From Tubulanus polymorphus (taxonomy: Eukaryota > Animalia > Nemertea): a stretch of 64,000 bases of DNA. Position numbers and translations under genes: made by a program. Positions 20,401 to 44,400 of the stretch are shown piece by piece (positions within the stretch are counted from its first letter, which is position 1; each line of letters opens with the position of its first letter). The notes below the pieces were generated by a model. The model ran no database searches. It was not told where the DNA came from and saw nothing but the letters and a program-made list of their open reading frames with translations. The DNA lies in the NCBI RefSeq assembly GCF_964204645.1, contig NC_134025.1, forward strand, positions 9,610,001-9,674,000. Direction: 5' to 3'.

Positions 20401-23400
20401 ATAGTAATTGTAAACTTTCTTTGGATTGTATTGCCTCACACTGAATTGAATTCCACTGAGCATTGAGGTTTTTCAGTTGCCGGTTGATAATGTCTCGAGA
20501 CACCGAGTCAGCAAGTCGGTTCAGTTCACTAGCTTTGATGTTTAACTGATCGATTATGTCAACTTTAGACAATTCCACACAATGATCCTACAAAAAATCA
20601 ATACAATTTGTTTACATGGGTTTTGTTCTTAGCCAAAGTTTCAAAATATCTAATCATTAAAAACTGAGAATTGTACAACTGAGACTGCACTTGCTTCATT
20701 TTTCATCAAATATGATATGCATTTCTGGTCTCAAAGTAGCAGTGATTTCAGTGATACGATATTTTCATAATTCATGCTTCATAAGACAGACAATTCCACT
20801 TAATCTGTATCAATTCAGAAGACTCAAAATCCTGCTAAATTGTCAGGGGTAAATCAATCAGAATATACCTGAACAGTTTTCAGACAGTCATGGGTGATTT
20901 CCAGCGATCCTGTAATCAAAGGAGAGATGCTTGACCATTTTTGTTCCATTTCATTGATTGTTTCAGTAGCCTGTCCAAGTAATTCGTGATAGATATCCCA
21001 CTGAACTGAGTATTTTTCCAGGTCTTGAGTTCGTCTGATTGCGCTATCATTGAGACGGTTCAGCTTATGGTTAAGGTTTCCGAGAAGTTCCTTTAACGTT
21101 GCTCTATCGTTTGAATCAAGGGTTGGCACCATTCTCTCAGACAACTCCAATAACTGGTCCATTTCATAGTGACATGATTTTTCAGCAGAAAAGAATGACT
21201 GAAATGGAGAATTTTATGTTATAATTATTGAATATCCTTCCAGGGTAAATATTTGCAACTGCTTCGTCCTTACTTTGTGATCTTTGAGATTATTGTGGAC
21301 ATTTTCATAACTGACAACATCTACAGATTCCTGTAAACAGTTTTCCGCGGCTTTTATCCATTCAGTAATTGAGCTTACTAATGAATCAAACTTCAAACGA
21401 TCACTACGGGAACTTTCTAGATATTTCTTCTTTTCGTTGATTTCATCTTTTAACAATTGCGACACATTTCCAACTTCATCCATTTTTTCGTTTAGCTCTA
21501 GTGGAATCGCTTCGTCATTGCCACTGAATGACATTTTTTCCGCACTGACTGTCCGCAAGAAATCGTCGACGTAATCTAGTACTTCTTCGGATATTTGCTG
21601 AAAATGAAAATTTGACATTTGTGAAATAGCAAGCACCAATTTCTCATAAGCATTTCAATATCATATTAGAAATGGTAGGCCTACATTCAAACCCATTTGC
21701 TGACTGCTTGGTAATGAAGACATTAATTCTTCCAAATCAGAATTTTTAGAGTTATGACAATCTTTTACTGGCGAATGGAACAATATCTTACCTCATGTTT
21801 TGAATAGGCTTTTTCAGAAATATTTGCATCCAAACCGAGATATTCTTTTGCATTGATATCAGTCCTTTTCTGTTTTAGCCATATCAGACTTTCATCCAGG
21901 TGTTCTTTGAATTTATTCCGTTGTACGAAAGCCTTATCCATCTCTTTACTTTTTTGTTCTAGATCACGGACCATCGACTCCAGTTTTTGTTTCAAAATTT
22001 GTGTCTGTTCGATCATTGCTCGCTTGTCAATGTGAGAGGTTTCCACAGCCACAAGATTTTGAGCACGAGACAACAAACCATCAACGACCGGCTCCAAGTT
22101 TTTCAGACTGTCGAGAACAGACTGTGGAATATATCAAGACAATTTGATGTACTGCATATTTTTTAGTTGAAATGATACCATTTTCTTGGTTGAAGCATAT
22201 TAAAACTCACCCTGTATCTGTCAAGTTTAGTCGGTAAGGAGACACCGCTTTCTGAAACTGCATCTATCTGGTCTTGGTTCTCTTTCAGTTTCATCTCAAC
22301 TTCCATCATGCGATCGCAGAATTGCTCACGTAATTTTAGGGCAGTCTGTAAACATACATGCTGCTGACCAACCTGAGAAAGATTGGAAGGAAAATGAATG
22401 ATAAACAAAATCTACGGTTGGTCTTTTACTCCTGACACTATATGACATTATATGTATTTTATACCCTATGGTTTGGCAGCACAAAGGTTAAAATTAAGCT
22501 TTTAGATAAAAATGAGCATGAGTCATATATGTATAAGATACATACATAATATAAATTTTTTCTTACCTTTTCTTTCAGGTATGCATAAAGTTCATTCAAT
22601 TTCAACAAATCTTTCTTTTCGAATTCCCTAGCACTGACATCTGCATGCATGGATGTCAATCTTTTTAGAACAGTGTCAAAATTTGTCAATCTATTCTGAA
22701 GAGCCTGAAATACAAAAAAGCAGATGCCTATAGAATATACATGTATAACCATACAGCATATTAAAGCGAAACACAGAACAATTGCTGAACTAACCTCAAG
22801 AGATTTACAGTGAGATTTCGTATCAGAAATATGACCAATCGGTTTGGTAAATTTCTTCGCCTCCTCTTGCATATCATTCAGTAAAACCCTAGCATCAGCC
22901 AGCTCCTTCTTGTACTGTCCATTGACCTGTAGAGCGTCTTCAAGGAGCTGTTTTCGCTCTTTCACAATAAAATTCAATCTGAAAATGGAGATGCATACAT
23001 ACAAAAAGCATGGCTCGCTTGAACAAAAGATTTCACAAATATTTTCAAATACACCTACTTATCCATCTTCTCGCGGAATTGTTGCATTTCATCGTTCAGG
23101 GCAGTTTTTCCTGTGTCAGAAAGATGGTCCCTCATGATACTAATTCGGTTTTCCCATTCAACTAATGTAGCATTGTGAATGCGTGCTTGTGCGCACAGCG
23201 ACTGCAGAAGAAAACGCATTTAACGATAATCAAATGGAGCATTTTTATGCTATGAATGGTTTTATTTCTAAAAATGTTTCTTCCGGACAACTAACAACAA
23301 AGGTCAAATCATTTAAATTAGCTGATATCATGAAAGTAAATCAATCTACATAATGCATGAAATACAATATAGCACTGTAGTAAACTTAAAATTAACCTTG

Positions 23401-26400
23401 TATTTTCTATTCTTTTCCTCTAATTCTTTGATTGGTTTATTGAGTGTTAATGATAGAGCAGAAACTGCAGCGGTTTCATTCATCCACGACTGGATCTTCA
23501 ATTTATCCCTCTCAAATTCGCGCCGTTGCGTAAGGGCTTCTTTAAGTCGTCCCAACACAACCTTCGGTTGACCTTTCATTGCCAGGTACCGAGTTTCAAT
23601 ATCTGCAATGAAAATTAACTAATCAAATTATTGGAAGTCCTTTGAGAATGGATTATGACAAGACAATATCTCTATATCATACCTCTAATTTGCTTCATAA
23701 GATAAGGTCTACTTTCTTCACAGCAGTTCTGTTTCAGATCATCTGTAAGAGCTTTCAGGTTCTTTACCATAGAATCGACTGATTGTATTTCAGAATCCAT
23801 TTCCTGTATAATTGATTCAATTGCAAACATTCAGGACATAATGTAAACCAAAATGTAGAAGACACAAATCAATAATGAGTTAGAAGTAATCACAACTACA
23901 TAGGAAATCTCCCACAGTTTCATGGCAACAGCTTTTTGAAATAGGTAGGGAATCGGTATAGCAATTCTTGAACATGAATTGTGAAAAAAATTGTAAAAAC
24001 CTGAAAAAAGATATCAAATTTTCATAGATTACTAAGCTATTGATTACTACCAATTATGTCAAATAAATCTTATAGATTTTGCTGAAAAAAAAATCAAAAA
24101 AGGATAACAACAGTAGTGATTAAAGTTTTCAATGATAAATAACCACATCGAAAGCTTTGGCAATTCACATTATGGAAAGTTGTTTGGCTACCAGTAGTCA
24201 ATTCTGAACTGGTAATGACAAACGAAGATATTATGTTAAAATATCCATGTAAAAATAACCTTAAACTGGTCAAGTGATAGTTCTATTTCACCGGAATGGT
24301 AAGGAATGCTGATTGTCTGCGATAACTCTGCCTCTTTCTCAGTAAGCCAGTTCTCGATTTCCAAATATTGCGACCAGAATTGACGCCGAAGTTTAACAGC
24401 TACATTTAACGTGTATAATTTCTGGTGAACGGCTTCACGTAGTTTGTAGTGTTCAATATGAACGAGTTGCAGTCTCGTTTCGACAGTTTCTCGGTCTTTC
24501 TTCGTCGGCAGATTTTTGATTAACTCGTCACCTTTCCACCGCGTGCTGTTGATAATCGATTGATTTTTTTCAACGTCCTCATAAATGACCTGCCATGAAA
24601 ATATAAAATTGATTCAAATGAACCAAAAGTGATTCATTATACCTAGTGGGATTGGATAAGTACAATTAGCGTTATGAATAAAATACATGTATTTCAAACT
24701 ACTGAGTACCACACCGGACCCATCAGCAGGCTTCCCTTATTCTCCTTACTGTTCGGGGAGAGGCCAGTTAAGAACAGTCGATTTGTTGTTAAGACTGAAG
24801 CCTTCAAACACCAGAAAGTAACGACTTGAGATTAGTATTTCAAAGTCAATACCTGTATGACGTCTAGTATTGATTGTACACCCTCTATTTCGAAACCAAG
24901 CGGTTCTTCTCTGTGAATTACTGCAATTTTTTCTGACAACCAGTGCATGTAATCGTCGATATCTTTGAAAAGGTCGTCGTAATTTCCGTGTAGCTGTTCA
25001 TAATTTTCTAGTTTACCACTGATGTATTTGTTGATATTTTCAAGCCTCTGTTGGATTTCCCTACAGTTGAGACAGATAAATTACGTACATATTCTTTGCT
25101 TTAGATGAGAAAAATATCGAAACCATAATATCCCGATGTAAGATGAATATTTACCCAACATGATTCTGGACAATGGCTCTGTCGTAGTGGCTTACAGCAG
25201 ATTTCACTAGCTCTGCTTTTGAGGTAAGGATTTCAACGTCTTCTGAGAGATGACAAGCGGTACTGCGTAATTTCTAAAAAACAATAATATGCAAATATCA
25301 TTTACAAAACATGCTCGTTCTGATGTATAATTAACCTGTTTATCATTTAAAGGAACAAATGAAAATGCTTTCAATCATTGAAAAGATTAAATATCATGAG
25401 AATGTGAATTTTGTATTTCTATATGCTCAACGTCAACATAAGAGAAACCATTTTCAGACCAAAAAACCAGTATTTCATGAACATGTATATCGATATAGGC
25501 TATCGATTTAGGTGCGATGAATTCACTACAAAACTAACAGTCTTGGAGTTTATGAAAACAATTTACTACTGATTTACAGCTTCTTGGCAACTAAAAATCT
25601 ATGCCGCTTTACACCTACCTTGATCGCAGTCACAGATTTCTTTAATAAATGAACGTTGTTCATAAGCGTAACAACTAATCGTTGCCTTTTATTATGTATA
25701 ACTACGTGTACGCATATAATGAAACATATAAATGTCAATGGCGGGTCAATTTTACACACCAATAACCATTTTACATGGGGAAAAACTATTACCGGTACAC
25801 GCTTATGTCTGCGCGTTAAAGATTTGCGTCTTTAAGATTTTTTAATTTAAAAAAAAATTAAAATAGCAATACGTGAAAAGGGTTTTGAAGTAGAATAGAG
25901 ATGAGAAATCAAATTCTTTTCTTAATTCACAGAGAAAGTAACTCTGGGATGTGATATCTATTTTTAAGTAAATACACGGTAAAGTTAATCTTTTCTGGAT
26001 TGACTAAATTAGGTATGCACATTCTCACTACAAAAAATAGGTTATCAAAAACAAATTTTTTGAAAATGAACGAAGGCTTGTCAATGATTGTTCAAATTTA
26101 TTGTAGTAACAGGTTTAGAAATAGATATTCATTCAATAAGTGACAGGTCATGAGAGACAGGTTAGTTACGTCCCTTGTGAACAAAGTCACTGCATGAAAA
26201 TGTTTTTGCACTAAAAACAAGCTTATGTTTTTTTGTATTTGTGCAATGTATTGTGGTTTTACTGATAATCGTGATATTAGTAATTTCTTAATGAGAGCTG
26301 TTGTTGTCTGTACACTGAAATGTTACTTAATGATTTTTTTCAATTCCATGTATCTAGCCATGCTATCACCTAAAAGGCAGATCCAGATGAGTTACAAATT

Positions 26401-29400
26401 TCAGAACGGACTGTCTGTGCGTATAGTAGAAACTGGTTATAGGTCGATTCTAAATCTTATTGTGAATCTCTGCGTCATGAATTCATTCAAAATAAACTGG
26501 TCACTTAATCGCCATAAAGCTGCTTGATATAGTTTTCAAATTCAATATCATCTTTATATTGTCTAATATCGATGTAAAACGATAAATATTAATCTCAAAA
26601 TCCGTCTCTCGCATGTGCTGGTCAGTGAGTATACGTCTGTTTGAATTTCTTTTTGAAAATGTTCTAGACTTTACCATAGATATATCATAACACCAGATCT
26701 TAATCAGTTCAAGATTTCAGTCATCAAAAATTTTCTTAATCAGATTTAAAATCTTCTTAACAGGATCTCTTAAATCTAGCATTAAGATATATATTTCAGG
26801 GTAAATTATTCTAAAGGCAAGATCTTGCTGGTCTGGTGATAACTATTTCACACGCATGTGTGAATGCAGTTATCGGTAAAAATCCCCAAGGTATCCCCTT
26901 GGATAGAAATCCCCCACCTTTTGAAAGGCTAATTAATTCATATTGATATATTCAATTTATTCATATTCTACTAGATTGTATTTCATAAGATTATGAGGAT
27001 ATAAGTTATTGTAAAGTTTGGATTAAAAAATACTACAAATTGAAAGTTCAACTAAAGATTTATTAATTCTAAAAAAAATCAATTGCAGTTTTGTCTGTAA
27101 TTCACATATCTCAGTCCATGATATGAACTTCAGGATTTTTGTATTATTTCTAAAATTGATCAAAAAAGCTTTATTTGGATTCTTATGTAAAATGATCCTC
27201 AAGATATTGAAGAATGAGGAATCCTATCGCTACTATCAATTATTCCACTTCGGACTAGTTCAACTAGTAGCTTACTTTGGTTATCCATACTTCTGCATTT
27301 CAATTGAAATTGACTATACCAATCACCCAATAGAGAAATCAATCTTATTTATATTTTGATAGGTTGCGTGATAAAATTTGGATTCGGGAGCCTTAAGATC
27401 TGGTTTAAAATCAATTATTATGCGTCACCAGATCTGCAGTTCTCCATTCAGAACGCCATCTAAAGTCACAGGCCAGTTTATTAAGGGATTCTCAAAACTT
27501 GAGGAAGTAAATTGTAGAGAAATAAATTCATTTTGCTGGTCGATGGCAGACATAAAATATCATCATTCCGATGCAGTAACATCACAACAAGAGACTCTGA
27601 GATTTCAATTGGCTTTGGTAAAAAGTTGTACGAATAATCATGTGACAAAGCATAAATAGAACAAGCAAATATCCAAACTTTTCATTTCAAAATAGCAGTT
27701 TCTCTATCAACTACTATATTGGATATTGGATATTTTTCACCATTCACCAAAACCTGCTAGTCCGAAAAAAAGCCTTGCATGAAAATGCTGGAAGAACATT
27801 GAAGCTGAATTCCAAGACAACAATAGCACATTCAATTATTCAAAGCTTTATTGATATATTGAAAAAGGCACGCATAAGAATATATAACAGCCATTTAAAA
27901 CCTACATACACTATCTACATTTTTGCATTACCTAATACTGATGCTTTTCATTTCACCTAGAAGTTTTTTTTCTTCGATTTTCTTCAATGAAAAATGGACG
28001 AATATGACTGTGTACAATACATACGATGAAAACGTAATCAAAAATGATTTTTGCATATAAAATTTATTTCAAAACCTTTTTTCGCAATGAAATCATATTC
28101 TAAGGTGGAATATTGCTCATAATTATGTCGACTCTGCTGCCTACTAAAAATCAGTTAATTGTTTCCTACATATCTACCTTTGTGAATGAAAATACACGTT
28201 TCGAACTAATGATACGCATAATCGTAAATATAACAGTCAAAACAGGACAATATTAATAAAATGGACGGAATTCTTATCAATATATAAAGAATATGAATAT
28301 AAATAAATCTAGCGATAAATAGATAAATGAGAAGAAATCACAAAAAAATTCGTACAAATAAACAAATCACAGATTCTTTGACGCTTCTATTAGAAATCAT
28401 AAAATGATTTTATGCTATTTTGTGTTATTATCTACCTTCAATGTGGACGGTTGATTATTGGAAATTGAAAAACTAATCTATTTACAAGGAATAATATTTC
28501 CATGTTTGAAATACATCCTAATTCCACTAAACTAATTTCGAATACAAGAGTACTAGTCAATAAATTACTGATATTTCCATTTTTAAATATCTATTTAGAA
28601 GTGACGATAGTGAAGTGATCACCAATTTTCCAGCTTGGAGGGAATATTGACAACTGGATGCGGGCGTACACAACCGATTTGACACCAAAGATGGTACATT
28701 ACCGGAAAAAAATAAAATATCTTAACTTTACACTAAAATAGTTTAACAATAATATACACTTTCTATATCAACAATATCCGTTTACTCGAATATATTTCAG
28801 TATAATTTTCCTAAGGACAATATCATTGTCAAATAGCTTTTACTTTTTTTGCGTAAGTAAAAAGTCACTTGCTAAAATCATTAAGTTAGGCATGAAGGAA
28901 CACACCTAATAACAAAACAACACTATCGATCTACTGGAGAAAAATTGAGTAATTACGTAAAGCTTGGAGCAAATCACTCCAAGGTGTAAGTAGAAAACTT
29001 GTTGCCGATCAAAACCAAAGATCAGTTTCATCAGCAACAGCACCTTTTACAGTTAATAACCTGTGCTAACACTGGATAAAACTAGGCTATAACAATCTAC
29101 CGTATCTATAAAATCATAAAACATGCTATAGGCCATTAGCCTTTTACACCATAAATTCAAATTCAGCCAATGAATACTTTGATAAACTCATAAAATCATT
29201 TCAAGTGGTTAAGATAACAATATAACCATGGGATTAGTTAGAAAGCATGTCTTCATAATACTCTGATTTAACCATGGAAGACAATTTTGAATGTCAAATT
29301 TGGGTTCATTCACTTCTTTTTACTGAAAGCGCAGCAGATTATCTTCTATCGACGATGATTCGATGTACTGTGTGTTCATCTATTAGTTAGTAATAATTTC

Positions 29401-32400
29401 ACTCGATAAAGTGTCCTTCATTCTCTCTGAGATTCTGCGCAGTTCGTCAGCCTTTCGCGAGACATTCTTCAGGTCGTGGTCGATGTTTGACACCAAGTTA
29501 TGGTTGACGATGTCGTACTTTTCGCGCGGGCTGTACGGACTTCTCGGACGGCGGCTCGGTTTGTTGTAATCGCGCACAAAGTCTCGACTGTCGACGTTTC
29601 GAGGTAGATTCAGGGTCGACGATCGCTGGGATGGCGGTGGAGGCGTGAAGTATTGGGGCGGTGAGACAGGATATACAGGCGCCGGTGTAAACACGGGAAC
29701 TGCCTTCGTGTATATTGGTCCTAGTGGAGGTGGCGACGACACGGTGCTTGTACGATCCGATTCATAGTTATAATCACCGGCACGCGGAGGCGGGGGTCGA
29801 TATTTCTCGTAATCGGCCAGCGGTCGAAGGGGACTGCGGATGCTCGGGCGATCACGCTCCGGAGCTGATTCGCGTTCGGGTCTCAAACGAGAAGCCGAGC
29901 TGGATCGAGGTGCTGATCCCGGACGTCGTTTGATCGATGATGGCGGTGTTACGACCCTCATCGGTGACGCGGAGTACCCACGTGAATTCGGCGATTCGTA
30001 GTCTTTAGTAGGTGGAGAGTACCGTGCAGTCGAACGCGACCTACTCGGGACAGATGGAGGCAATGTATTCAGCGGTTTGTATGGATTATCTTCCTCAACA
30101 TTATATCTACCATTGACTGGTTCACGCAGACTTTCATTCTGAGGTTTCTTCTTCATCCACGGCTTGAATGGTTTTCGTGTTTCTCCACTCGAGAACCCGG
30201 AATCTTCAGCAGCCGCTTTGTTCTGCTCAGCAAGATCGCTGTTCATGTTCTTAATTGTATCTAAAAGTGATTTGAGCGCACGGCCACGAGGGGTACCGCG
30301 AGAGGGGTCGATATCATGCGGTTTGATACGTCCGTTGGGAGTCTGAGTTCTGGCATTCGAAGGTGTCTGCATTGATGAATCAACGCTGTTCATGTAGCCG
30401 ACGACGTTAGTTTGAACTCCGACATTTTCTGGAGTTTGGGTATAAGCCCGTTTCGGTGTTTGCGTCTCGATATTGTGAATCGACGGCACGTATCGAGAAG
30501 AAACGCCGATGTCCGATTCTGCGTCGGTCGTATCAACGGTTGTTTGGAATTTTCTCCATGGTTTTGATCGCTGCCAAGGTTTCTTCTTGGTCTGCGTGCC
30601 GGCATGATTAGGAGTCTGAGTACGACGGTTCGATGGAGTTTGCATTGCGAAGTTGCGACTATCCGCCGGTTCACGATCCGACGCCCAAAGCGAAGACTCG
30701 TTGTCGTCGTCGTATAACTTATACCCGCTGCCGTGACTCCCGTTTATCATCGGGGAAGTTGATTTCGCGAGTGGACTTGCGCGAAGATCGTCAACCGAGT
30801 TCTTAAGACTTTGCACCTTCTCGGCCATGTCTTCTAACTTCCTACCGAGGTTATCGTCAGCCGCAGATTTCGGACTTAGACCTCGCCTCTTCTTATCCGT
30901 CTGCGCTCCGTGCGACGATCGATACAATCGTCGTCCGGTCTGGCTAGCCATATTATCAAATGGAATCGTTTGCGAGCTGAAATCGTAGGTCGGTATGTCT
31001 TCAGCATTTACGTAGCTTGCATGAGGCAAACTGCCTGATGTTCCAACGCCGATTTCATTTGGGAAGTCAGATAGGTAATCTTCATTCAAAGGAGCCCGTC
31101 CAGGACTATGGAAACGGGCAGGCGACGGCGATGAGCTGAGTAAATCTCGTGACGGCGTCACGCGTCCTAAACCCGTATCGTCGCTGCCATAAGTGCCTCG
31201 TTTGGGAGATAACAATCGATTCGGTATCTTACTGTCCGTAGCCGAACGGTAGGGCCAGAATTGTTGCGAAATTCCGGTATGATCGCCGCTGTTTCTCAGG
31301 CCACCCGGTCCTCGGTCGTAACTATCGCCGCTACTGTAACCACCTCTACTGGCTGGACGATTGGCATAACCAGAACCTAATGTTCCCAGTGGACCAAGAC
31401 TTGCGCCTAATGAATAACTATCCCCGGATTTCTTAAGTATATCTTGTTCAGAAGTGTACAGTGGATCCTTGGCCGATCTACCGAGCTCTTGTTTACCGGC
31501 TTCAGTTTTCTTCAGTTCAGCTTCGAGATCAGGTGAACTGCGATGACGCTTCAGCATAGACAGTTGGGTTTGCGTGGCGCTGGTGTGCGGCGTTTGAGTG
31601 GATGTATCGTGCAAATTCAACGAGCTTGAACTTCGAGCTTCAGCCTGAAAATGAAAACGAAATTCGTGATTAAGAACCTCGCATTTGAAAATGTACACTA
31701 CAAGAATCAAAACATTTATTGTACATGTGTCAAAATGCTACCGCCACTACTAAATAGATAGTAATTCAAACAATTAAAATACGTGGATGGTTAGAGAGCT
31801 TGGCGTAATAAGTCTAACTTATTACTCCAAGGTTAGAGAATATGTGATTTATCATTCGTACAAGCATGGAAGGCCATTAGCAAAAGGACAGAGTACCAAG
31901 AATTTAATGCGGAGCTTAGGCCATGTTTACCCCACATCAAGTAGTTAGAAGGTTAAAGCCTTTGCACGAAGTGGTCTGCAGCAATGCCACCTGCACCATC
32001 GCTTAGAATTGAAGGAGTCTGAGATAAAATTGGCCATAAAAATCAATCTCGAATAATCAAGGAAATAATCGGAAATTAATCAAATTAAGACTTCAGAAAT
32101 TAAAGGATACAGGAAAAAGTACGAGATTTTTTATCATTCAAGAGCATATATTGGAAAATAATGAGATAAGAGAAAGACTTCTAACATCTAAAAAAGTCAT
32201 AGGTCATCAATATATGTGCAAATTTTTAAGGATTTGGTGCCAATTTTTAATTGGTGTTCTAACTATGGTACTAAATGTGAATTAAAGTTAATGATCTAGG
32301 ACTAGCATACTAGCATTTCATAATCATGAATAATTAAAGCAACCTTCTCCAAAGCTAATTGAAGCACACTATATCTATGAAATTACAAATAAAAGGGAAA

Positions 32401-35400
32401 CTGATTTTATAGTTATACATATTTCAGTCATAAGAACATTTCCTACAATGTGGTATTCTAGAACCAATGATTTGCGTATACGATAATACATATGCATAAT
32501 GAAAGTCCTTTTACAATTTTTCGTATCAATCGTTTTTAGACCATGCATTCTCATACATACATCATAAGCTCATTTTGCACGAAACCGAACATGCCATCGT
32601 TAATTCGTCATGAAATCTCGATAAAGCATCGACATGACTGCAAAATAATCCGCCTTCCCTTTACAATACACCTGTAGTGGGGAATTAACGAGCGAAATTC
32701 ATTTTCAATTGATAACCTGTCGTGCGCTGATAACGGCGTAATTTTACTCGTCAATAGAGATCATTACCGTGCATTGATCATTGCTTCAAATGAATGCAAA
32801 ATGCGGACATAACTCTGAATGAGACAGAGATTGATGAAACTGGATCTATCAATTGCGTTCAGTTTAAACGCGCCAAAAAGTAGTTCATCAAAGAAAGCGT
32901 AATCAAATGAAGATACTAACAGGAACTTTAATATGCGAGTGCCCTAAGCTAGTCTCACTTACAAATATTTGCCTAAAGCTATTTCTCTAGTGATTCAATA
33001 TCTTTTACAACCACAAAAAAAAATACCCGAGCAAACAATCTTCGTTGAAAAGAAATAACACTCTAGATATTTTTTGAAAGTTACACCTTGATATCTTGTA
33101 GTACTGTAAAAGTTAGCAGTAATGTGAATATCAAAAACACTTAATATTTGATTTATCTCCTTCCCACCGATCAAAACTTCCAATATTTTTTCATTAATTG
33201 GAACAAAATGATTACCAATTCTATCAATTATTGGTCTAATTACTTTCTACTGACAGAATGCTAAATATGACTGTATTTTTTTTAATCAAATTACAAATGA
33301 ACACTTGCCTAACAATACAAATTTTCAATTCGATGCTTTTATCAGAAATATAAATGCAATGTATCTAGAATTCTCATTCGTTATACCGACCTCGTTAACA
33401 ACTGGATTTAAATCCCAACTGTAACAATCATAACCGTACATCATCAACGATATTAAAGCTTGAATTTCATACGTCGTATGAAAGTTGAGTGAATTGGTAG
33501 ATTTTCGCGTTAGTGGAGGTCGAAATATGCCTAGTGTTACGCAGGCTGTCTGTCATTAATGGTATATTGGCGCATAACTCTTATCAGCGGCGAACAGACC
33601 ACTTGCCAACCAAGCCATTTCATCGATTCCAAACAAACAAGCAGCAACGTTTAAACCAATAGAGCAGTTAATGAGAATGCAAGGTACCGACAGAGCATTT
33701 AATGAGAACGCATGGTAATTCCCGATTTCAAAAATCCGATTACTTGCCCGTACGAATTAAGAATCCGATCTAAAAAAGCAGCTTTCACCATGGTAACTGC
33801 TTCAGAGATACTTTAACAAGGTACCGAAGAATAGTTATGCCGATAATATAGGCTCAATGAAATTCCCAGACTGATTAGGGCTTCAATATCATTTGTAGTG
33901 AAGTGGCTTTGATAATAGCGAAAAACTCGATAAAAATAGATAAAGACTTTATCACAAGGCAAATAATAATAATATTGCCAATTCCATCGAAACACATTAT
34001 GTTTGACGAATAACTTTCTAATTGACCATATAGTCAAGAAATTGAGTACAGAGTATGAAATTCATATTGCTCAACTCACTTCTTTACTGAAGTAATCCAG
34101 AAATTTGTGAATCTAGCTTCATATAGTCGTGTCGTTTGCTATGCGCTAATTATCGGTTTTTCAGACACACCCCACTGATTTCTGAATTTACGTGGCAGCC
34201 GTGAATAATGCGTGCCTTTTACTTCTCAATGGAAACATTAATATTGTAGTAATACGTCTGCAGAGGGAAGTCAACTACTAGTCGTTCGAATTGTACTCCG
34301 TTCCCACACGTTTACAAAGCGAATTGCAAATTACTCAACAAAAGACCAAGTAACGACCTTATTCATTTCTACGATGATATCTTATTCAAATAAATTCTTT
34401 CGCGGATTCGTCGGCGAAATATTGTAACCAGCAGAAAAAAATCGGAAAATGGCCTCTAATGAAAACTTAAAATATGCAACACATATTCCTGATATACTCA
34501 TAGTGCATGTAGGCATCTAAAATATTAATAAACCAATTCAGCTAGAGGCATCGGATGGTCGCATAACGTTGTCGTATATACCTAGCTGATAGTAAAATAA
34601 TATCGGAAATCGCTTCAAAACGTCAGTTAAAGCCCAGTAATAGAACATACTAAATCATAACAAACTAATAATCACTAATCTCAGACATAAAGTAAAAATA
34701 CATTTCATATGCTAATGAATCTAACACTAAAAAATAAGTGTCATACAATAATGAATTGGAAACATTGAATAATGAAAATCTAAGGGTAAAATTAGGATAA
34801 AACATGATAACAAAACTTTAAAATTGACATTTTTTTCTGGAATTTGATACTTCATGGTAAAAGAAATCTAGATATCTGGGCAGATGGCTTTAACCCTCTA
34901 TCACCTAGGATGGTGAATCAATTGAGACTTAAAAAGTCTACAACCCCGGTAAACGACAAAATACATGACTGTTGTTGTAAATACCTTTTCATCAGAATTC
35001 CATCATTTAGGCTAAGAGGAGGACAGGTAATAAGCAATGACAATTGAGTCTCACACCACACGGACAGCATCACTCCGAAAATAGTTTAGCCAGCACGCTT
35101 TCGTTATCTCTCGCCTCTAAAGCAGTCACAATGTTAGGATTTTTCACACCGGAATAAGACAAATTAGAAGCGGCTCCACCGTGTTTTAACGAATTCGTCA
35201 TCCGTTTTAGCACTTTCTTAATCCTAAGTTTTCAAATCGTAAAATGTTACAGTAGACATCATCCGAATTTCAGCATGTTCATATACGGAGATATCTGCTC
35301 TAACTCATCCCCGAGGGCCGTTAATGGTAGAATCAAATGAAATCTCAGAACAGGATTAGTCTATTATTGCCCGAAATCGCCTGCTGTGGAGTAAATTAAT

Positions 35401-38400
35401 GTCGTAGTCATGGAGTACAATTCCACCGATGGCGTGTCTCCGGCTGGTCTATTATATCACTTTTATTAGCGACAAAGACGAACAGCGCTACATGCAAAGC
35501 GTAACTGCCCGACTATTTAGTATTTCGCAAAAACCGCATGACTAAGTTTTCTTAATTTTCCAATATCCGTTATTTTATGTTCGTACGTTAACATCACAGA
35601 GCTAGATTGACACGCACACCACCGCGTACAGTCGTAACCACGAGCACTAGTAATATAATACCGCCGCCTGACAACCGCGATTAAGCGCAATAAATCGAAT
35701 AGAATATTATCAATTCCTCTTGTGCATCCATGTATATTTGTCAACTTTAACGATAATTATTGCCGTGAAATAAAGTGCAAAGCAATACCTCGGACAGCAA
35801 ACAAGTTGCAGAATGACAAACATTCACAACCATATGCTTGATATTCGCGTTCCAATATCTATAATGGTCGTAAACATATGCACAAGCATTGTTTGAACTA
35901 GCAATTCATTCTTACACGAATTCATTGATAATGTACATGATTTCAGTAGTTTATTGATTTTACAGGCATTCATGACCGGACTGACCGCCCAGTTATCAAA
36001 GCTTCATTGATTGGTGCCACGTCGAGTGAAAGTTATGTGAAAATCTTTTCATGCGTGCGAAAATGTTGACCCCAATACGAACGGATTCCGTCCAACATAG
36101 CAAATAATGTGCCTTTTTCATAGTAACATGCAATTTAAATTCCTAAGCGTATACAACTTTAAAAAGCAAAAATGTCCGCGGTCATATTGTAATGGGGAAA
36201 TGATCCGTGCTCCACAGTCATTATGGTACAATTTAAGGTCTCGTTAAAGATTACTATTTTAGATAAGGGCGCAATATAAGAACTAAAAATAATTGCAGCA
36301 AATAAAAGTTGGTTTACGTAAGTGTGGTTAGGGAATGAAATACAAAACAAATTCAAAAGCACTGGCAGAGAACAAAAGCTTGAACTATCTAATAAAGCAT
36401 CTATGACTAAAAAGGCAATTTATTACGGTGCTTGAAAATAAATGTAAATATCAAATATCAAATCAAACATAGGGTATATTTATATGGAGCATAGAAATGC
36501 AAGGACAACATAATAAATCATGAAGATTTTTCTGAAAATTTCCCCCACCCAGTTTTGGTAAACCCATTTCAGCAATAGGACAGTTTAGGTACATAACAGA
36601 CATCAGAACCTTGTAACACAAAATGCAAAAATTGTGTGATGAAGTTTACTTTTGGCTACAAGGCTTTTTATCTGTCTAGGTACTGATATATGCTGAATCT
36701 AAGCTATGATTTTCTAAAATGTTTCAATGGGGAGAATTATCTATATCTAGTAGCTTGAATTTGAAAATTTAGAGCAATAGTCCGGTAAGCTAAAGTATCG
36801 TAATCACATTGACACATGTACAGGAATAAGACAAGACATGGACTAAACTAACAAATGAAGAATACAAGCAAAATCAAACATGAGTGACCAAGCAAAATAA
36901 GTGATAATGCAGCCCAGATCAAAACAAGAACTTATTCAAAATCATGAAAATTTTCAATCGAACGTTTAATCGAAAAAAGTGATTGGACAAAAGTGCCTTT
37001 TATAATCAACTTGATTCTTCGAATATCAAATTTCAAACAAAGATTCAAGTGCTGGATTCAACACTAGGTAAATATCCATCAAAATATGACCTACCTTAAG
37101 TCTATCGGCGTTCTCCGCTACAATCATTTCTTCGCGTCTGTAACGTTCAAGTTCTGCCTCCAGTTCTTCGACGTCTCGGCCGACTTGACCACGTTTTTTG
37201 TTATAAGCGTCGCCGTTTTCCAATGCGTCGCGACGTTTTGACATCAAGTTATTGACACGTCCGAGCAGCTCTTCATAGTCTTCTTGTAGCGCTTTGATGA
37301 CCGGATCTCGCAGCGACGGATCATGTTGCGTCAGGTTTTTGTGTTTCGTCAACAAATTGTTCAACATGCGTTCTTTCGATCGTATTTCGTCTTTCAGGGC
37401 CTAAGAGGAAACATGAAACATGAAAATCATATCAACTTATTCAACAACCATAAAAAAAAAAAAACTAAAAACAAAAAACAAAAAACTAATTGACAGTTTT
37501 TTCTAGCAGAAACCGGAGAAAAGATCAATGTTGTTTGTTTTCTATTCCTGCATATTGCAGAACAAAAACAGTTTTTCTGCTGGAAAATGTGTTTTTCAAC
37601 AGCTGTGATAACGGCTTCACTGGCTAGTAATTCTTACTGACCTGCATATGAGCTAACTCCAGTTCACCGGCATCGGAGTGAAGTTTCGCTGGGCAGTCTT
37701 CGAGGTCTTTCAGCTCAAGTTGCTGGGTACGAAGCCAGTCACGGAAATCAGATTTCATCTTATTGACATCTTCCCACTCTTTGACCAAATCATTGAGACC
37801 ATTCACTCGATCTTCGACCTATTTCATGAGCAAAAAACATAATTCAAAAATTGGTACTAATGGGAATGAACAACAATTACTAATCAACCTAACTGGATAG
37901 CTTAGCGAATCAAAAGTTCAATAAGAAATTTTTAGGTGATTCAAATTAAGATTTACTGGAAAAAACATAATATTGTTTTTGGCAAATATTTTACTGGTTA
38001 CCATGGCATTTAAGAAAGTGAATTGAAATTTGTTAATAGAAAAAAAGAAAACATAAAATGTTAATCTATTTACAAGCTAGTAAACAAAAAATTCTTAGTG
38101 TATCTACTCTAGTGCGATTGTACTACTGTAATTCCTGAAATTCAGCAAGATTTTCTAACAGAAAATAGACAAAAAATATCAAGAGTATTTAATCAAAATC
38201 CAGGGTTACAAAATTACTACTAATGAAGTACGGTAACTAAGATTTTTTATCTAAATTTCTTGAAAATGAATTCATTTATCTTTTGTTTTAACAGTATGTC
38301 CGACAGAAAAGGAGCTACCGATAGATCAGAGGAAAGTCTTACCCTCTCATGAGCATCTCGCAGGTTAAAGTTGACACGATCGGCCAGGCGATTGACCGAA

Positions 38401-41400
38401 GAATCAAGTCCTACTTCGACCTGGTCCAGTGCTTCCATGCTTCCGGTATTTTCACAACGATTTGCTGCAGCTTGTAAGTCTTGTTTCATGCCTTGAAGTT
38501 TTTGAAGCATTTCCTTTGAGAGAATATGACAATGTGATAATCAACCCACCATCACAAAATGTACACATAAATATGGTAAAGATGAGTATAGACTGATACC
38601 TTAGATTCGTGCATCTGTATATGCGCATGTTCAATTGAATCTGCTTGTGGTCGACGTTTTCCTACCCACCAAACGGCCAAATCTTTATCCATAAACTTTT
38701 CAGTTTTGTCCAGTGACTTTTGATATTCCTGCCATTTTTCTAAGGTATCTTGAAGACGGTCCTAAGTGATTAAGAAAATATCCAACTTTAGATAGCAGCG
38801 ACTGTTAAGTAATATCCTACACCTAATATCATACGACTTGAAAGTTCTCTAGAACATATTCATATTTCGCATAGCTTGAAGGTATGGTTTTACTGTTACT
38901 AACTACTATATACACACACGATTCATTAGAATGCATCCAAGCGTGGAGCTAATCCGCCGGCAAAAGTATTATGGTGACAAAGACACAAATCTACACATTA
39001 ACCCATTACAATTTGATTCAAATTCTTTCCTTTTAAGATTTAAATGAACACACCCGGCATACATACTAAGTGAGTGAAAGACTTAATTAATGCCAAATTT
39101 GTTTAAAATTTCAGGTACTTTTCATGCAAGATCACACCTACCTTGATTTGACCAGCAGTTGCCTGCAGTGCCGAATAACTATCCTGCAAATTGTCAAGTT
39201 CAGAATTAATTGAGCTCTCAAGTTGAGGATTCCTGTCGTTACTCTTAATCAGCTGGTTGGCCGTCTTTTTCACTGAGTCGATGTTGCTCTGGTAGGCAGC
39301 AATTTCACGCATCAGCGCCTGAAAATTATCGACAAAATATGAAATCAGTGGGATATATACATGTATGTATAGGAAGGATGCAAATAAAGATTATTGAGGG
39401 CTTACAGCGTGTTTCGTTATCTGTTTTTCTGTGAGCTCCATGCTACCGACATTGAGTCCATTGTGAGACATAACCTGGAAAGACTTTTGTAGAATCCATT
39501 TCTCTGTGTCTTGTACGGTATCATGATAGTCCTGATGTTCGTCATATGCCTTCTGTAACTGATCTACGATTTCCTGCCAACATGAAATAAACACTTGTCA
39601 AAATTATTGTGTATTCAAGTTATTCATCATAGAGATAAAATCAAACCATGGGGGACCCCCCTCTAATTTTGAATGAGTTTACACAATCTGGACTGGACAT
39701 GATTTAAGATGGAATACAATTTCTAATCCGGATTGATCATGAGCTGGATGAATTTCAAAGCTCAATGAAGATGCAGGAACTTACGTTTGAACGTTTTTTC
39801 AGTTTATCATAATTCTGCGTCATTTCACCAATCGACTTATTGACCTCTTTATCGGGTCGGGTAGTTTGGATTTGCGAGGCTACTTCTGTTAAATCTTCGA
39901 TTTGTTTGGCATGGTAATTGATGTCAGTTTGAATGGCCTGAAAAAATAAGAGGTTTTAGAAAATTCTTCAAATTTTTTTATTAGACAAACAAAAACAAGA
40001 TTTTGCTATTCATGGATTTTCATATTTTTTCACATGTCATCGACCTAAATGAGATTCATCTGCATACCTTGTATTTATCAAGTTGTTGTTTCTTGTCCAA
40101 GAGTTCAACTTTACGTTCGGGATCAGCGAGTAAAAGATTCTCTGTGTCGAGCATCCATTTCAAGATCAGGTCGTAACACTCTTCGTATTCGTTATATTTC
40201 AACAATGATTTCTCCAGATTTGTGCTGCAAATATTGATGTTGCCGTGCAACGTGTCCCAAGCTTCGCGTAATTTATCCATCATGCCTTGAATCTTTTTCT
40301 TTCCCTCCGGGCTACAGTTTCTCATCACTTTTTGTGCCAATTCTGTCGCTTTGCTGAGTTTAGTGTGTCCGTCATCTAGATTAGCATTAATCTCCTATCG
40401 GGAATAATCGACATTGAATTCAATACAAAATCACGCTCAAACCTGGCCAAAAAATTCAGGTTTTCTAAATGTTCGCTTACCCTGACAGCATCAATTCGGC
40501 CTTCAATCTCTTGCCAATCACCTGTCGTGTCGTTGCACTTGCTCAATCTATCGCTGGCTGACTCTAACCACTGCGCACAATCAGCATATGCAATATCATA
40601 GCCTCGATGGTCTTTGGCAGACTGTTCGAGTTTGTTTGCTGCATCCTAAGAAAAAATAAAAAAACAAAACTGGTAAATGATAAAGTCATAATCATAAATG
40701 AATTTACTAACTAGAGCTACGGTAAATGAACTACTCTGCTTCAGGTCACTGTCAACAACATTCCTATCGGGAGCTTTGAAACATGAGGTTCACTAACAAA
40801 TTAGTATACTAAAAGCAACTTACATGAATCACATCCTGATGAAGCTGTTCATCAGGTTTAAAAAGAGTTACATAAATGATATCAAAATGTTAGTAATCCT
40901 GAGGTGATTAGCACGAAACTTTTGCAACAGTAAATCCTAGGTTACACAGATAATCAAATGCTAGATATGTATCAATATGAAAGCTATCATTTAAATTTTC
41001 ACGGTTTAAATATCTTAAGGTAATGCCAGCAATTAGAGAACGGTTTTCACATAAGTCTTTATTTTCTAAGAAACTATGGAAGAGTAACCACTGAATTTAC
41101 CTTTGCTGTTTGGAGAGCGGTTTGATAACGAGTGGAGATCTGCATCATTTCACTTGAAATTTCTGGATCTAAACTATTTTGTAGAACAGCCTGCGACTTC
41201 TCGTTCAAACTATCAAAGTCCGGCTTATGTGCTGCTATGTCATCACACAGTGCCTCAATCTGGCGGAATTTCTTCTGTTTTTCCTCTAGAGTAGCATGTG
41301 GATCATTTATGGTCTTCAAAGCATCTTCCACCTCGTCTAACCAATGTTTGAACCCTGTTTTCTCATCGTTATAGTCAACCCATTTAAGTACATTATTTTC

Positions 41401-44400
41401 TAATTTATGTTGAGCATCATCGATATTTGCGCCCAATTCATCATACTCCCTCTGCAACTGGGCAATCTCCTTGCGAAGAAGTTCCTGCTGATGAGGTGGT
41501 AGGGTAGGCATGATCTTTTTCGCTTCTTCAATAACTTTTCCAATTCTGTCTCGCTCATTCGCACAATTCTGCTTGAATTGTTTAAGTTCATTTATTTTGG
41601 CTTGGACAGCATCTTTGTCACCGGACGGTTCACTAAGACGTGTAAGCTGTTGACGAGCTCCTGACATCCAATCCAAGGCATTCTGATAGTCTCGTTTGAA
41701 TTTTTCTTGTTCAGTTATTTCACCATCGAGCGTGTTGATTTTGTCTTTCACCGCCTGAAGGAGGTTACCATAACGGTCATCAACATTTCCGATCTTCTCA
41801 TCAGCTTCAGCTCCTCCTAATTCAGCTAGTTTTTCTTTCAGTTTATCAAGAGGAATTTTGTGGCTCTGTATATCTTGCAGCAAGGCCTAGAATTACATCA
41901 GAATATAGAATTTGATAACACTCATTTCAAGAAAACATTTGTTTTTAACACAAGTACTTCATATTCTTCCTATGGAAGATTAGCATTTGGTCATACCTTA
42001 TATCTATCTAGCTGAGCTTTCTTATCAGCCAAATCTCCTTTCGTCTCCGGGTCCCGTTCAAGTTTATGTTCTAGGTCTCTGAGCCAGGTATCCATTTGTT
42101 CATGGCCACGATCAAATTCTGCCCATTGAGTTGATGCCTGTTCCAGAGTGATCTTATTTTCGCTGAGACCATTTTTGAGTTTTTCATACTCATTCCTTGC
42201 GCCATCAATTTCATCTCTGACCAGCCTTTTGCCAGCTGCATTAGTGCTGGGCATGAGTCGATCTCCGTAGTCATTGGCACGGCGTAACTTACTATGTCCT
42301 TGGTCAAGCGAGGCTTGTAATTCCTGAAAACAGATATAACTATTTTCTCACAGTCATCCCTGATAAATAGCGTGTTGGACAACCCAATTCATTGAGGTCA
42401 GTTACAATACTACAATGCCTTTGATTGAAAATTTAAGCTTCAAAAAAAATTAAAAGAAAGTATTGATTTAAACTGGATATAAAAACTAATACCATTCTGT
42501 AATTCGAAATTCAAAGCAAGAATCTAATTGTGTTTGCAATGCAAAAACCATAAAAATCATTTCAAATTTAAAGAAATAAATTACAACAGACTCCATACTT
42601 GAAATCACTTATAGATCACATAAAGCACCGCTAAAGCAGTCAACTGTATTTCAAAGTCCAGTTTAGGAAAATCATTGATATTTGCTAAAAAATCTGCTAA
42701 CTTACACTACGAAGATTAATTATAGCCTATGAAGAGAACATGTAACAAAACCTAATAATATTTGAAATACACTTGCTATCATAATCATTCAATATACCGG
42801 TAGGCCAAATACATCCAGCCATTTTGATAAGAAAATCACACATACCCTGACATTCTGTAAGTAGGCATCAACATCAGCTTTGGAGCCTTCAGGGGCTTTG
42901 ACTCTTTCCATTTTCTCTTTGACATCGGCCAACCATTCGTCATATTCATCCATAGCATCCCTATAATTCTGGTGATCATTGTATTGTCCTTCGAGTTTCT
43001 TAGCATTTTCCTTGAAAAAATAAACAAACACTGAATGAGTCTGAAGAAAATTCTAAAACACTTAATTTTGTAAAATGATTACACATTTTTTTTTTTCATG
43101 AATATCATTTCTCTTACCAAAGATTTTGACACAAGTCCCTGGTATTTAGTTGTCATCTGAGTGATATTGTGTGAAATACGAGCGTCAGCATTCGTTTCTA
43201 GAAGAGCCTGAGCTTTCTTATTGACATCATCCAACTGTTGCTGGTGAGCGAGTATATCTTTATGCAGTTTCTGATATTTCTCTAGCTGAGCTTCCTTATC
43301 ATTAATGTTTGTTTGCGGTTCGATATCCTTTTTCACTAATTTTCCAGTTTCATCAAGCCATTGATTGAAATCTGCAGCTGCATTTTCATAATCATTCCAG
43401 CAGTCGAGGCAATCTTCCAAATTACCTCTAGCCCCATTCAAACTTTCACTGAAAGTAACAAATGACCAAATCGTAAAAGCATCCGTATTTAACAGTCGGG
43501 TTGCCATAGAACACGTAAAGAAACATTTAACCCTGTAAAGCATACTTGTAATTAGTGAAGTCGTGCTTCATTTGGCCCAGTTCCTGCTGTAATCGACTTT
43601 GACCAGCTGGAGCGGAGTTACGAGCGACAGCATCGCCATCAATCAGAGCTTTAGCCAACTTATCATCTCCATCATCAGCAGCTGCTTGTAACGCCTACAA
43701 ATTCATACAGTTTGTTAGAAAATATATCAAAAATCAGAAAGAAAAATCTGTTTCTTATTTTAACAGAGAAATTTACTTTGATCTTATCTAGTTTCGCGAG
43801 GACAGCATTTTTGTCACCATATACATCTGAACAGGATGCAAGTTTTTCTTGAGCACCCCTCAGCCAAGTATTGAAAGCAATATTTGAATCTTGATACTTT
43901 TGATGGTCTTCGACGGTGTCTTCGTTTTTCTTGACTAAGTCCTAAACAAAATTGAAATAAACTATTGTCACAAAATATTCAATGGGCAAACATGAATACA
44001 TTTACATCTAACTCAAAGTTACAATTTCATCTAAACATGATTGTATTTATCAACTATCGATTCTTAAAATAATAAGACAAGTATGAAATGCATATCAATA
44101 ACGTATATCTGAGACAGAACTGAAAATAAAGAAAAAGATAATCGATACATCAATTATGAGAGAAGAACCATAGCTCTTAATTTGATGAATATATTCTGAT
44201 GGGAAGGTGAGGTTACATTTATATATACAAATAGTAAGCAGGTGCTTAGAAGACTAATTGAAAATAATAACAAACACATAACAAAGGTAAACAAGAAAAG
44301 AATATTTATTTCAAACAACATTCAATGTACACATCTACTCTGAAAAAAATAAATTCGATTATAGCGATTTTTATTTCGTGAATCATGAAACTAATTATAG

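What the first reader, a model, noticed from the sequence alone, without database searches (positions are those of the whole stretch)
29383..31644. KASH-less alternative C-terminus that could turn nesprin-1 into a spectraplakin-like cytoskeletal linker
Seen: a 2262-nt exon inside the 25274-37094 intron, in phase with the upstream spectrin exon, ending in a stop. It has no TM or KASH segment, encodes a basic S/R/P-rich disordered tail and ends in a short coiled coil (DHDLKNVSRKADELRRISERMKDTL). Known: nesprin-1 binds actin via N-terminal CH domains and anchors in the nuclear envelope via KASH; spectraplakins (MACF1, dystonin, Shot) end in basic GSR-rich, SxIP-bearing microtubule-binding tails. 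Inference: this exon swaps the nuclear anchor for a microtubule/LC8-binding tail, a convergent spectraplakin-like product from a nesprin locus.
Basis: partly seen in the sequence, partly recalled or inferred. Interest (0 to 1): 0.88.

Follow-up and report, generated by a model that had tools for sequence, protein, structure and literature searches.

The report
Nesprin isoform with LC8-motif array tail
A giant spectrin-repeat gene, likely nesprin-1, splices into an alternative last exon that has no nuclear anchor and encodes a floppy tail carrying about a dozen conserved motifs predicted to bind the dimer-making hub protein LC8, which would make this form a cytoplasmic scaffold rather than a nuclear tether.

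Summary
The exon is real and used. Contigs from two studies (runs X2, X5) join 37095 to 31644 across a GT-AG intron. One X2 contig runs from upstream spectrin exons into the 753-codon tail, and cover continues to 27837, 15 nt past an AATAAA. The tail has no TM or KASH segment. It is predicted disordered except for three helices (260-289, 455-481, 707-752). One homologue exists (P0001, 32% identity, E 7e-55). The conserved signal is an array of LC8-type motifs: 14 QT (1.7 expected) and 7 TQT (0.13 expected). 11 of the 12 QT in the aligned range are kept in P0001, tiled as abutting 8-mers with proline at +2 and almost none inside, which is the published LC8 grammar. The spectraplakin reading is weak: no EF-hand, GAR or GSR repeat, and the one SxIP is not conserved. 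Only a basic last third (net +18; +15 in P0001) survives. KASH-less nesprin isoforms are known; a multivalent LC8 tail on one was not found in print. LC8 binding is untested, CH and KASH lie outside the window, and the skip splice to 25273 was not seen.

The parts
37095..41880 (-). Ten phase-0 spectrin-repeat exons upstream of the tail, spliced in contigs; last one 37095-37400 carries the donor
   Evidence: GT-AG joints, 10 of 10 in X2 and 7 of 10 in X5 (counting the joint into the tail); open frame into the tail
31645..37094 (-). 5450-nt GT-AG intron removed in the KASH-less isoform
   Evidence: table 5 (X2, X5)
29383..31644 (-). Coding part of the alternative terminal exon, 753 aa plus stop
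   Evidence: homologue P0001
31564..31611 (-). Two N-terminal TQT motifs (Q17, Q25), outside the range aligned to P0001
31222..31233 (-). Only SxIP (SKIP, residue 138); chance level and not conserved
30895..30987 (-). QT cluster 1 (Q225, Q235, Q248), all three conserved
30778..30867 (-). Helix 1 (260-289), best heptad pattern, predicted coiled coil, 51% identical in P0001 over 261-295
30586..30657 (-). Three abutting 8-residue LC8-type motifs (Q335, Q343, Q351)
30406..30477 (-). Three abutting 8-residue LC8-type motifs (Q395, Q403, Q411)
30337..30384 (-). Two abutting LC8-type motifs (Q426, Q434)
30202..30282 (-). Helix 2 (455-481), in the best-conserved block (64% over 446-495)
29545..30165 (-). 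Basic Ser/Arg/Pro-rich disordered stretch; last 260 aa net +18 (P0001 +15)
29389..29526 (-).
27837..29382 (-). 3' UTR covered by contigs; AATAAA at 28068 and 27852
   Evidence: X2 record 27837-29577; X5 piece 27997-28253
24260..25273 (-). Next spectrin-like exons (25155-25273, 24853-25060, 24260-24589), the inferred skip route to the rest of the gene
   Evidence: GT-AG and open frame from the 37095 exon; joint 24853/24589 seen in X2; the joint 37095 to 25273 itself not seen

Best explanation
The gene, likely an invertebrate nesprin-1/MSP-300, splices its spectrin rod into this last exon and stops there, and the predicted disordered tail would be zipped into a two-chain ladder by several LC8 (DYNLL) dimers bound to its conserved xQT motifs, giving a likely cytoplasmic, dimeric scaffold in place of a nuclear-envelope tether. 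Shown: the splice, the reading frame, the 3' cover, the lack of TM/KASH, the motif array and its conservation in one homologue. Inferred: nesprin identity and N-terminal actin-binding CH domains (outside the window); LC8 binding; pairing of helices 1 and 2 that flank the array; stiffening of the middle of the tail; helix 3 and the basic last third as the docking end, partner unknown (microtubules are one candidate). The 8-mers abut with no linker, so only some sites of each triplet, for example the outer two, are likely filled at once.
For: Splice in two studies, none in the intron-covering runs. Open frame through 11 exons. QT 14 vs shuffle mean 1.7 (max 6 in 2000 shuffles); TQT 7 vs 0.13; 33 spectrin ORFs of the window hold 1 TQT in 5296 aa. 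11 of 12 QT in the aligned range identical in P0001 against 44% background identity; the one lost has Phe at -1. Exact 8-residue spacing in both proteins. Pro at +2 in 7 of 14 and 8 of 14 motifs (1.5 and 1.3 expected); Pro at -5..-1 in 1 of 14 and 0 of 14 (6.0 and 5.5 expected). This matches the 8-residue LC8 motif with Pro/Asp/Glu at +2 and no internal Pro (PMC6607443, passages). No DNA tandem repeat under the array. Disorder with three confident helices. Precedent for LC8 ladders in a cytoskeletal linker: KANK1 (PMC12803091). Host gene: 530-aa collinear alignment to P0002 ending in a 60%-identical 40-aa block; Atlas clusters named SYNE1 and MSP-300 at 0.94.
Against: LC8 binding was not modelled or measured. 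Many TQT peptides do not bind LC8 (PMC6607443). Zero-length linkers are shorter than the published ones (3 in ASCIZ, 3-4 in KANK1, 4-5 in Nup159), so a fully loaded rod is sterically doubtful. Only 8 of 14 motifs have Thr or Val at -1. Conservation rests on one homologue, which is a stand-alone ORF, so its fusion to a spectrin rod is not shown. Pfam Spectrin_SYNE1 is below cut-off for window ORFs and also hits the distant P0003, so it is not diagnostic. P0002 carries no name. The AF2 model used 2 sequences, so low pLDDT is weak evidence of disorder.
Confidence: 0.6

Rival explanations
1. The tail works mainly as a spectraplakin-like microtubule-binding end, so the isoform cross-links actin (through CH domains) to microtubules. 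LC8 would only raise avidity by dimerising it.
For: Last 260 aa net +18, Arg 12.3%, Ser 14.2%; P0001 net +15. Arginines give spectraplakin Ctails their modest affinity, and dimerisation strengthens it (10.1101/122010, passages). pI 9.7.
Against: No EF-hand or GAS2/GAR domain. GSR count 0. One SxIP at chance level, none in P0001. 2 isolated S-R/K-x-x-S motifs, and Gly 1.9% in the last 260 aa against 8-10% in Ctails. The basic stretch is less conserved (38%) than the helix-2 block (64%).
Confidence: 0.2
2. The xQTP repeats are not mainly LC8 sites. They are proline-directed phosphorylation sites or bind another repeat-reading partner, and the tail is a phospho-regulated disordered or condensate-forming scaffold.
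For: 28 Ser/Thr-Pro sites in the tail. 7 of 14 motifs end in Thr-Pro. Spacing of 8 leaves no linker between LC8 footprints.
Against: Gln at 0 and the residue at -1 are conserved and Pro is excluded from -5..-1, which a Thr-Pro kinase site does not need. The unit length equals the LC8 footprint.
Confidence: 0.12
3. The exon is the ordinary last exon of a KASH-less spectrin-repeat gene, and the exons below 25273 belong to a separate downstream gene or transcript, so nothing is swapped.
For: Downstream exons 6066-11900 lie on their own 9446-nt X2 contig. KASH is not in the window.
Against: The 25273 acceptor is phase 0, with a normal pyrimidine tract, and keeps an open frame through two more exons to a spliced joint. 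The same strand and spectrin-repeat type lie on both sides. Drosophila Msp300 makes CH+KASH-, CH-KASH+ and full-length forms from one locus (PMC8616381).
Confidence: 0.08

Closest known systems
Drosophila Msp300 isoform B (CH+KASH-) and mammalian KASH-less nesprin-1 variants
   Same: Internal 3' end in a nesprin locus giving a spectrin rod without KASH; isoform B is proposed to act at Z-discs (PMC8616381, passages).
   Different: The mammalian 3' ends read in PMC3388047 (section 5) are retained introns; the example given adds 8 residues. Here a separate spliced exon adds 753 residues with a conserved motif array. The sequence of the Msp300-B end could not be examined.
Multivalent LC8 clients: KANK1 linker L2, ASCIZ/ATMIN, Nup159
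   Same: Long disordered region with many QT-anchored motifs beside predicted coiled coils; works-like model of an LC8-zipped two-chain ladder.
   Different: No detectable sequence kinship. Motifs abut at 8 residues with no linker (3-5-residue linkers are the shortest in the passages read). The array sits at the end of a giant spectrin rod and is switched in by splicing.
Spectraplakins (MACF1, dystonin, Shot)
   Same: Spectrin rod followed by a basic, Ser/Arg-rich unstructured tail with no membrane anchor.
   Different: No EF-hand, GAR, GSR repeat or conserved SxIP. The rod aligns far better to P0002 (166-171 bits) than to P0003 (75 bits), which I recognise from memory as MSP-300-like and Shot-like respectively.

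Membership tests
nesprin-1/MSP-300 locus | Long rod of spectrin repeats of the SYNE1/MSP-300 type | tested here: met
   Pfam Spectrin above cut-off; collinear 530-aa match to P0002, E 5e-48; Atlas rows SYNE1 family and MSP-300 at 0.94. Spectrin_SYNE1 is below cut-off and not diagnostic.
nesprin-1/MSP-300 locus | N-terminal tandem CH domains | not testable with these tools
   The 5' end lies beyond 64000; no genome held.
nesprin-1/MSP-300 locus | C-terminal TM plus KASH in the full-length form | not testable with these tools
   The gene runs off the window at position 1; no KASH-like end in the three minus-strand frames.
alternative terminal exon | Spliced in frame to upstream exons | tested here: met
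alternative terminal exon | Skipped in another isoform (37095 to 25273) | tested here: inconclusive
   Frame fits; joint not listed in 4 runs; contigs drop rare forms.
multivalent LC8 client | Several 8-residue motifs with xQT anchor, Pro/Asp/Glu at +2, no internal Pro | tested here: met
   against PMC6607443
multivalent LC8 client | Motifs lie in a disordered region | tested here: met
   pLDDT under 50 over 220-258 and 290-440 (2-sequence alignment); composition
multivalent LC8 client | Physical binding to LC8 | not tested
spectraplakin C-terminus | EF-hands and GAS2/GAR domain before the tail | tested here: not met
   no such Pfam row for the tail or the donor exon
spectraplakin C-terminus | GSR repeat with overlapping S-R/K-x-x-S sites | tested here: not met
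spectraplakin C-terminus | SxIP in basic context | tested here: not met
   One SKIP, p 0.27, not in P0001
spectraplakin C-terminus | Basic, Ser/Arg-rich unstructured tail | tested here: met
   (Gly content lower than in Ctails)

The most novel reading that the evidence does not exclude
A splice switch turns nesprin-1 from a monomeric nuclear tether into an LC8-polymerised, two-stranded cytolinker. Actin is held by paired CH ends, a zero-linker LC8 array with a register not yet described sets stiffness and senses LC8 level, and the dimerised basic end grips microtubules. That would be a spectraplakin function reached without any spectraplakin part, possibly the main product of the locus in this lineage.
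Probability: 0.25. Interest if true: 0.8.

Novelty: new variant of a known kind. Interest (0 to 1): 0.6.

Why it matters
KASH-less nesprin-1 forms are thought to work at Z-discs and elsewhere in the cytoplasm, but what holds their free C-terminal end is unknown. This exon supplies a concrete, conserved candidate: an LC8-dependent dimerising tail. It also offers a natural test of whether LC8 can load on abutting motifs with no linker, a spacing shorter than in the multivalent clients read here. It is one animal lineage plus one homologue so far, so it extends known isoform logic and does not overturn it.

Tried and rejected
Expression: no listed holder is on record as RNA; X2 and X5 are read as RNA only because they skip GT-AG introns. 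The joint 37095 to 25273 is not listed in 4 of 4 runs and X5 laid nothing on 6000-25900; contigs show presence, not absence. Contig depths in X2 (375 upstream and tail, about 0-4 in most bins of 15300-25900, 72 for the distal contig) hint at three isoform classes but cannot rank them, so no claim of dominance is made. More homologues: none among proteins of 1319-3765 aa (7973 candidates, weak negative). 0 hits among 1.84 billion representatives with the 2-sequence profile, not even P0001, so that blank is uninformative. Atlas first hit 0.75, a 940-aa unnamed cluster of 70, mostly Mollusca: lead only. Metagenome scan: 1 locus of 87 pattern matches (L001), a chance hit in the wrong frame of a bacterial ATPase gene, rejected. 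PDB by sequence: 3 rows, best E 0.29. Foldseek PDB: 0 matches on a low-confidence model. A scan of viral contigs for an LC8 gene found 0. No protein spanning the branch point was found. Tandem DNA repeats do not explain the array. The second large exon (11632-15429) has 2 QT and no TQT. Earlier findings of this scan: nothing in 3 look-ups. Literature: 0 papers for nesprin+TQT+LC8, Msp300+Cut up+LC8 and LC8+multivalent+TQT+spectrin repeat. The 15 of 239 listed for nesprin/LC8/DYNLL1 showed no nesprin-LC8 study by title or abstract start. Only open-licence papers are searched; no supplements were opened.
Full report
Observation. The minus strand holds an open frame from an AG acceptor at 31644 to a TAA at 29383: 753 codons, followed at once by a second stop. 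The upstream spectrin exon 37095-37400 ends in a phase-0 GT donor. No other AG-led phase-0 ORF of 100 aa or more lies between 25400 and 37000. The product is Ser/Pro/Arg-rich (14.2, 10.5, 9.0%), pI 9.7, with no hydrophobic stretch (best 19-residue mean 0.6) and no Pfam family at cut-off.

The exon is spliced. Five public runs hold the region; none is on record as RNA. Four of the five were laid on 22500-41500. X2 shows 10 of 10 GT-AG joints between 41100 and 31643, and X5, from another study, shows 7 of 10; both include 37095 to 31644. X3 and X4 cover introns and show 0 of 10, as DNA would. One 5818-nt X2 contig carries the upstream exons and the tail down to 29579. A second covers 29577-27837 and stops 15 nt past the AATAAA at 27852; contigs cannot fix a 3' end, so this is consistent, not proof. 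The 11 exons give one open frame. An independent nested gene is therefore not needed to explain the exon.

The skip route is inferred. The 25273 acceptor is phase 0 and has a normal pyrimidine tract. It keeps an open frame through two further exons to a joint seen in X2. The joint 37095 to 25273 itself was not listed. Distal exons (6066 to about 11900) are spliced on a separate 9446-nt X2 contig. This layout recalls Drosophila Msp300, which makes CH+KASH+, CH+KASH- and CH-KASH+ forms from one locus (PMC8616381, passages).

Host gene. Upstream exons are spectrin repeats. The spliced upstream chain aligns collinearly over 530 aa with the end of P0002 (E 5e-48), closing in a 40-aa block of 60% identity at which both reading frames appear to meet an intron. 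P0003 and P0004 score far lower (75 and 54 bits against 166-171). All three are unnamed. That P0002 is MSP-300-like and P0003 Shot-like is my recall, not a tool result. Atlas neighbours include clusters named SYNE1 family and MSP-300 at 0.94. Pfam Spectrin_SYNE1 is not diagnostic: it is below cut-off here and above cut-off for P0003. Neither CH domains nor KASH lie in the window, and no genome is held. Nesprin-1 is likely, not shown.

Conservation. One homologue was found among 7995 scored candidates: P0001, 676 aa, 32% identity over 86% of the query, E 6.6e-55. It is a single unnamed ORF on a 6040-nt contig, starts at a Met inside the aligned region and so says nothing on fusion to a rod. Longer proteins gave none. 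The representative library gave 0 hits, not even P0001. The one metagenome locus was a chance bacterial hit.

What is conserved is an LC8-type array. The tail has 14 QT (shuffle mean 1.7, maximum 6 in 2000) and 7 TQT (0.13); P0001 has 14 and 10. The spectrin ORFs of the window have 1 TQT in 5296 aa. Two QT lie before the aligned range. Of the other 12, 11 are identical in P0001 against 44% background identity; the one lost has Phe at -1. Eight motifs form head-to-tail 8-mers, for example residues 330-353, RNFAMQTPSNRRTQTPNHAGTQTK, and P0001 keeps the same spacing. Pro stands at +2 in 7 of 14 and 8 of 14 motifs (1.5 and 1.3 expected), and at -5..-1 in 1 of 14 and 0 of 14 (6.0 and 5.5 expected). 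The LC8 motif is 8 residues, anchored by TQT, prefers Pro/Asp/Glu at +2 and tolerates no internal Pro (PMC6607443, passages; PMC12057147, passages). No DNA tandem repeat underlies the array. AF2 on the 2-sequence alignment leaves 626 of 753 residues under pLDDT 50 and gives three confident helices, 260-289, 455-481 and 707-752. The first two flank the densest motif clusters, and helix 1 has 7 of 8 heptad core positions filled.

Results against this reading. Many TQT peptides do not bind LC8. Published multivalent clients have linkers of 3 (ASCIZ), 3-4 (KANK1) or 4-5 (Nup159) residues (PMC10046861, passages; PMC12803091, abstract, introduction and most of the discussion). Here the linker is zero, so not all sites can be assumed to fill together; alternate sites are 16 apart, which would leave a linker of 6-8. 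Only 8 of 14 motifs have Thr or Val at -1. Binding was neither modelled nor measured.

The spectraplakin idea. Spectraplakin ends have EF-hands, a GAR domain and a Ctail with Gly 8-10%, Ser 18-24%, Arg 11%, SxIP sites and a GSR repeat (10.1101/122010, passages). The tail has no such domains, no GSR and 2 isolated S-R/K-x-x-S motifs. Its one SxIP is at chance level and missing in P0001. What remains is charge: the last 260 aa are net +18, and +15 in P0001, with Gly at 1.9%. It is not a member of that kind. It could still bind microtubules weakly, more so if LC8 dimerises it.

Mechanism. Use of the 31644 acceptor and its own poly(A) signal ends the rod without a nuclear anchor (shown, apart from the exact 3' end). 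LC8 dimers would bridge two tails at the motif clusters, helped by helices 1 and 2, turning the middle of the tail into a partly stiff two-chain ladder and pairing two rods (inferred; precedent KANK1). Helix 3 and the basic stretch would dock the end on a partner not identified here (inferred). Confidence 0.6.

Novelty. KASH-less nesprin-1 forms are known in fly and mammals. In PMC3388047 (abstract, sections 5 and 7) they end in retained introns, with 8 new residues in the example given. A spliced 753-residue tail with a multivalent LC8 array was not found in print (search listings only; open-licence library; supplements not opened). Verdict: a real, expressed, conserved new variant of a known kind.

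Noticed in passing
window 37769-37770: In both spliced runs (X2, X5; two studies) a contig joins at least 255 letters not found in the window (best 9 mismatches in 30) onto the middle of exon 37642-37818, just after a genomic AG with a poor pyrimidine tract, in frame. It could be an outside 5' exon giving a short spectrin-plus-tail isoform like Msp300-F, or a duplicated piece elsewhere.
   Followed up: partly
window 11632-15429: A second very large minus-strand ORF (1265 aa), low complexity, with two near-identical ~55-aa repeats near its end, no Pfam match and no TQT; partly covered in X2.
   Followed up: partly
window 6066-11900: Distal spectrin exons are spliced on one 9446-nt X2 contig that appears to begin in the 3' part of the large exon and runs about 5900 nt beyond 6066; may be a short CH-less form with its own start.
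   Followed up: no
window 35180-35813: Intronic patch covered in all four runs, with the same loose end at 35347 in X2 and X5; probably a dispersed repeat.
   Followed up: no
window 29383-41880: All ten introns of the spliced chain are phase 0, which would let exons be dropped or the chain be ended without frameshift.
   Followed up: yes
L001 1-11182: Unrelated bacterial contig with what look like a multicopper oxidase, a heavy-metal P-type ATPase and pentose-phosphate genes (read by eye); a chance hit.
   Followed up: no
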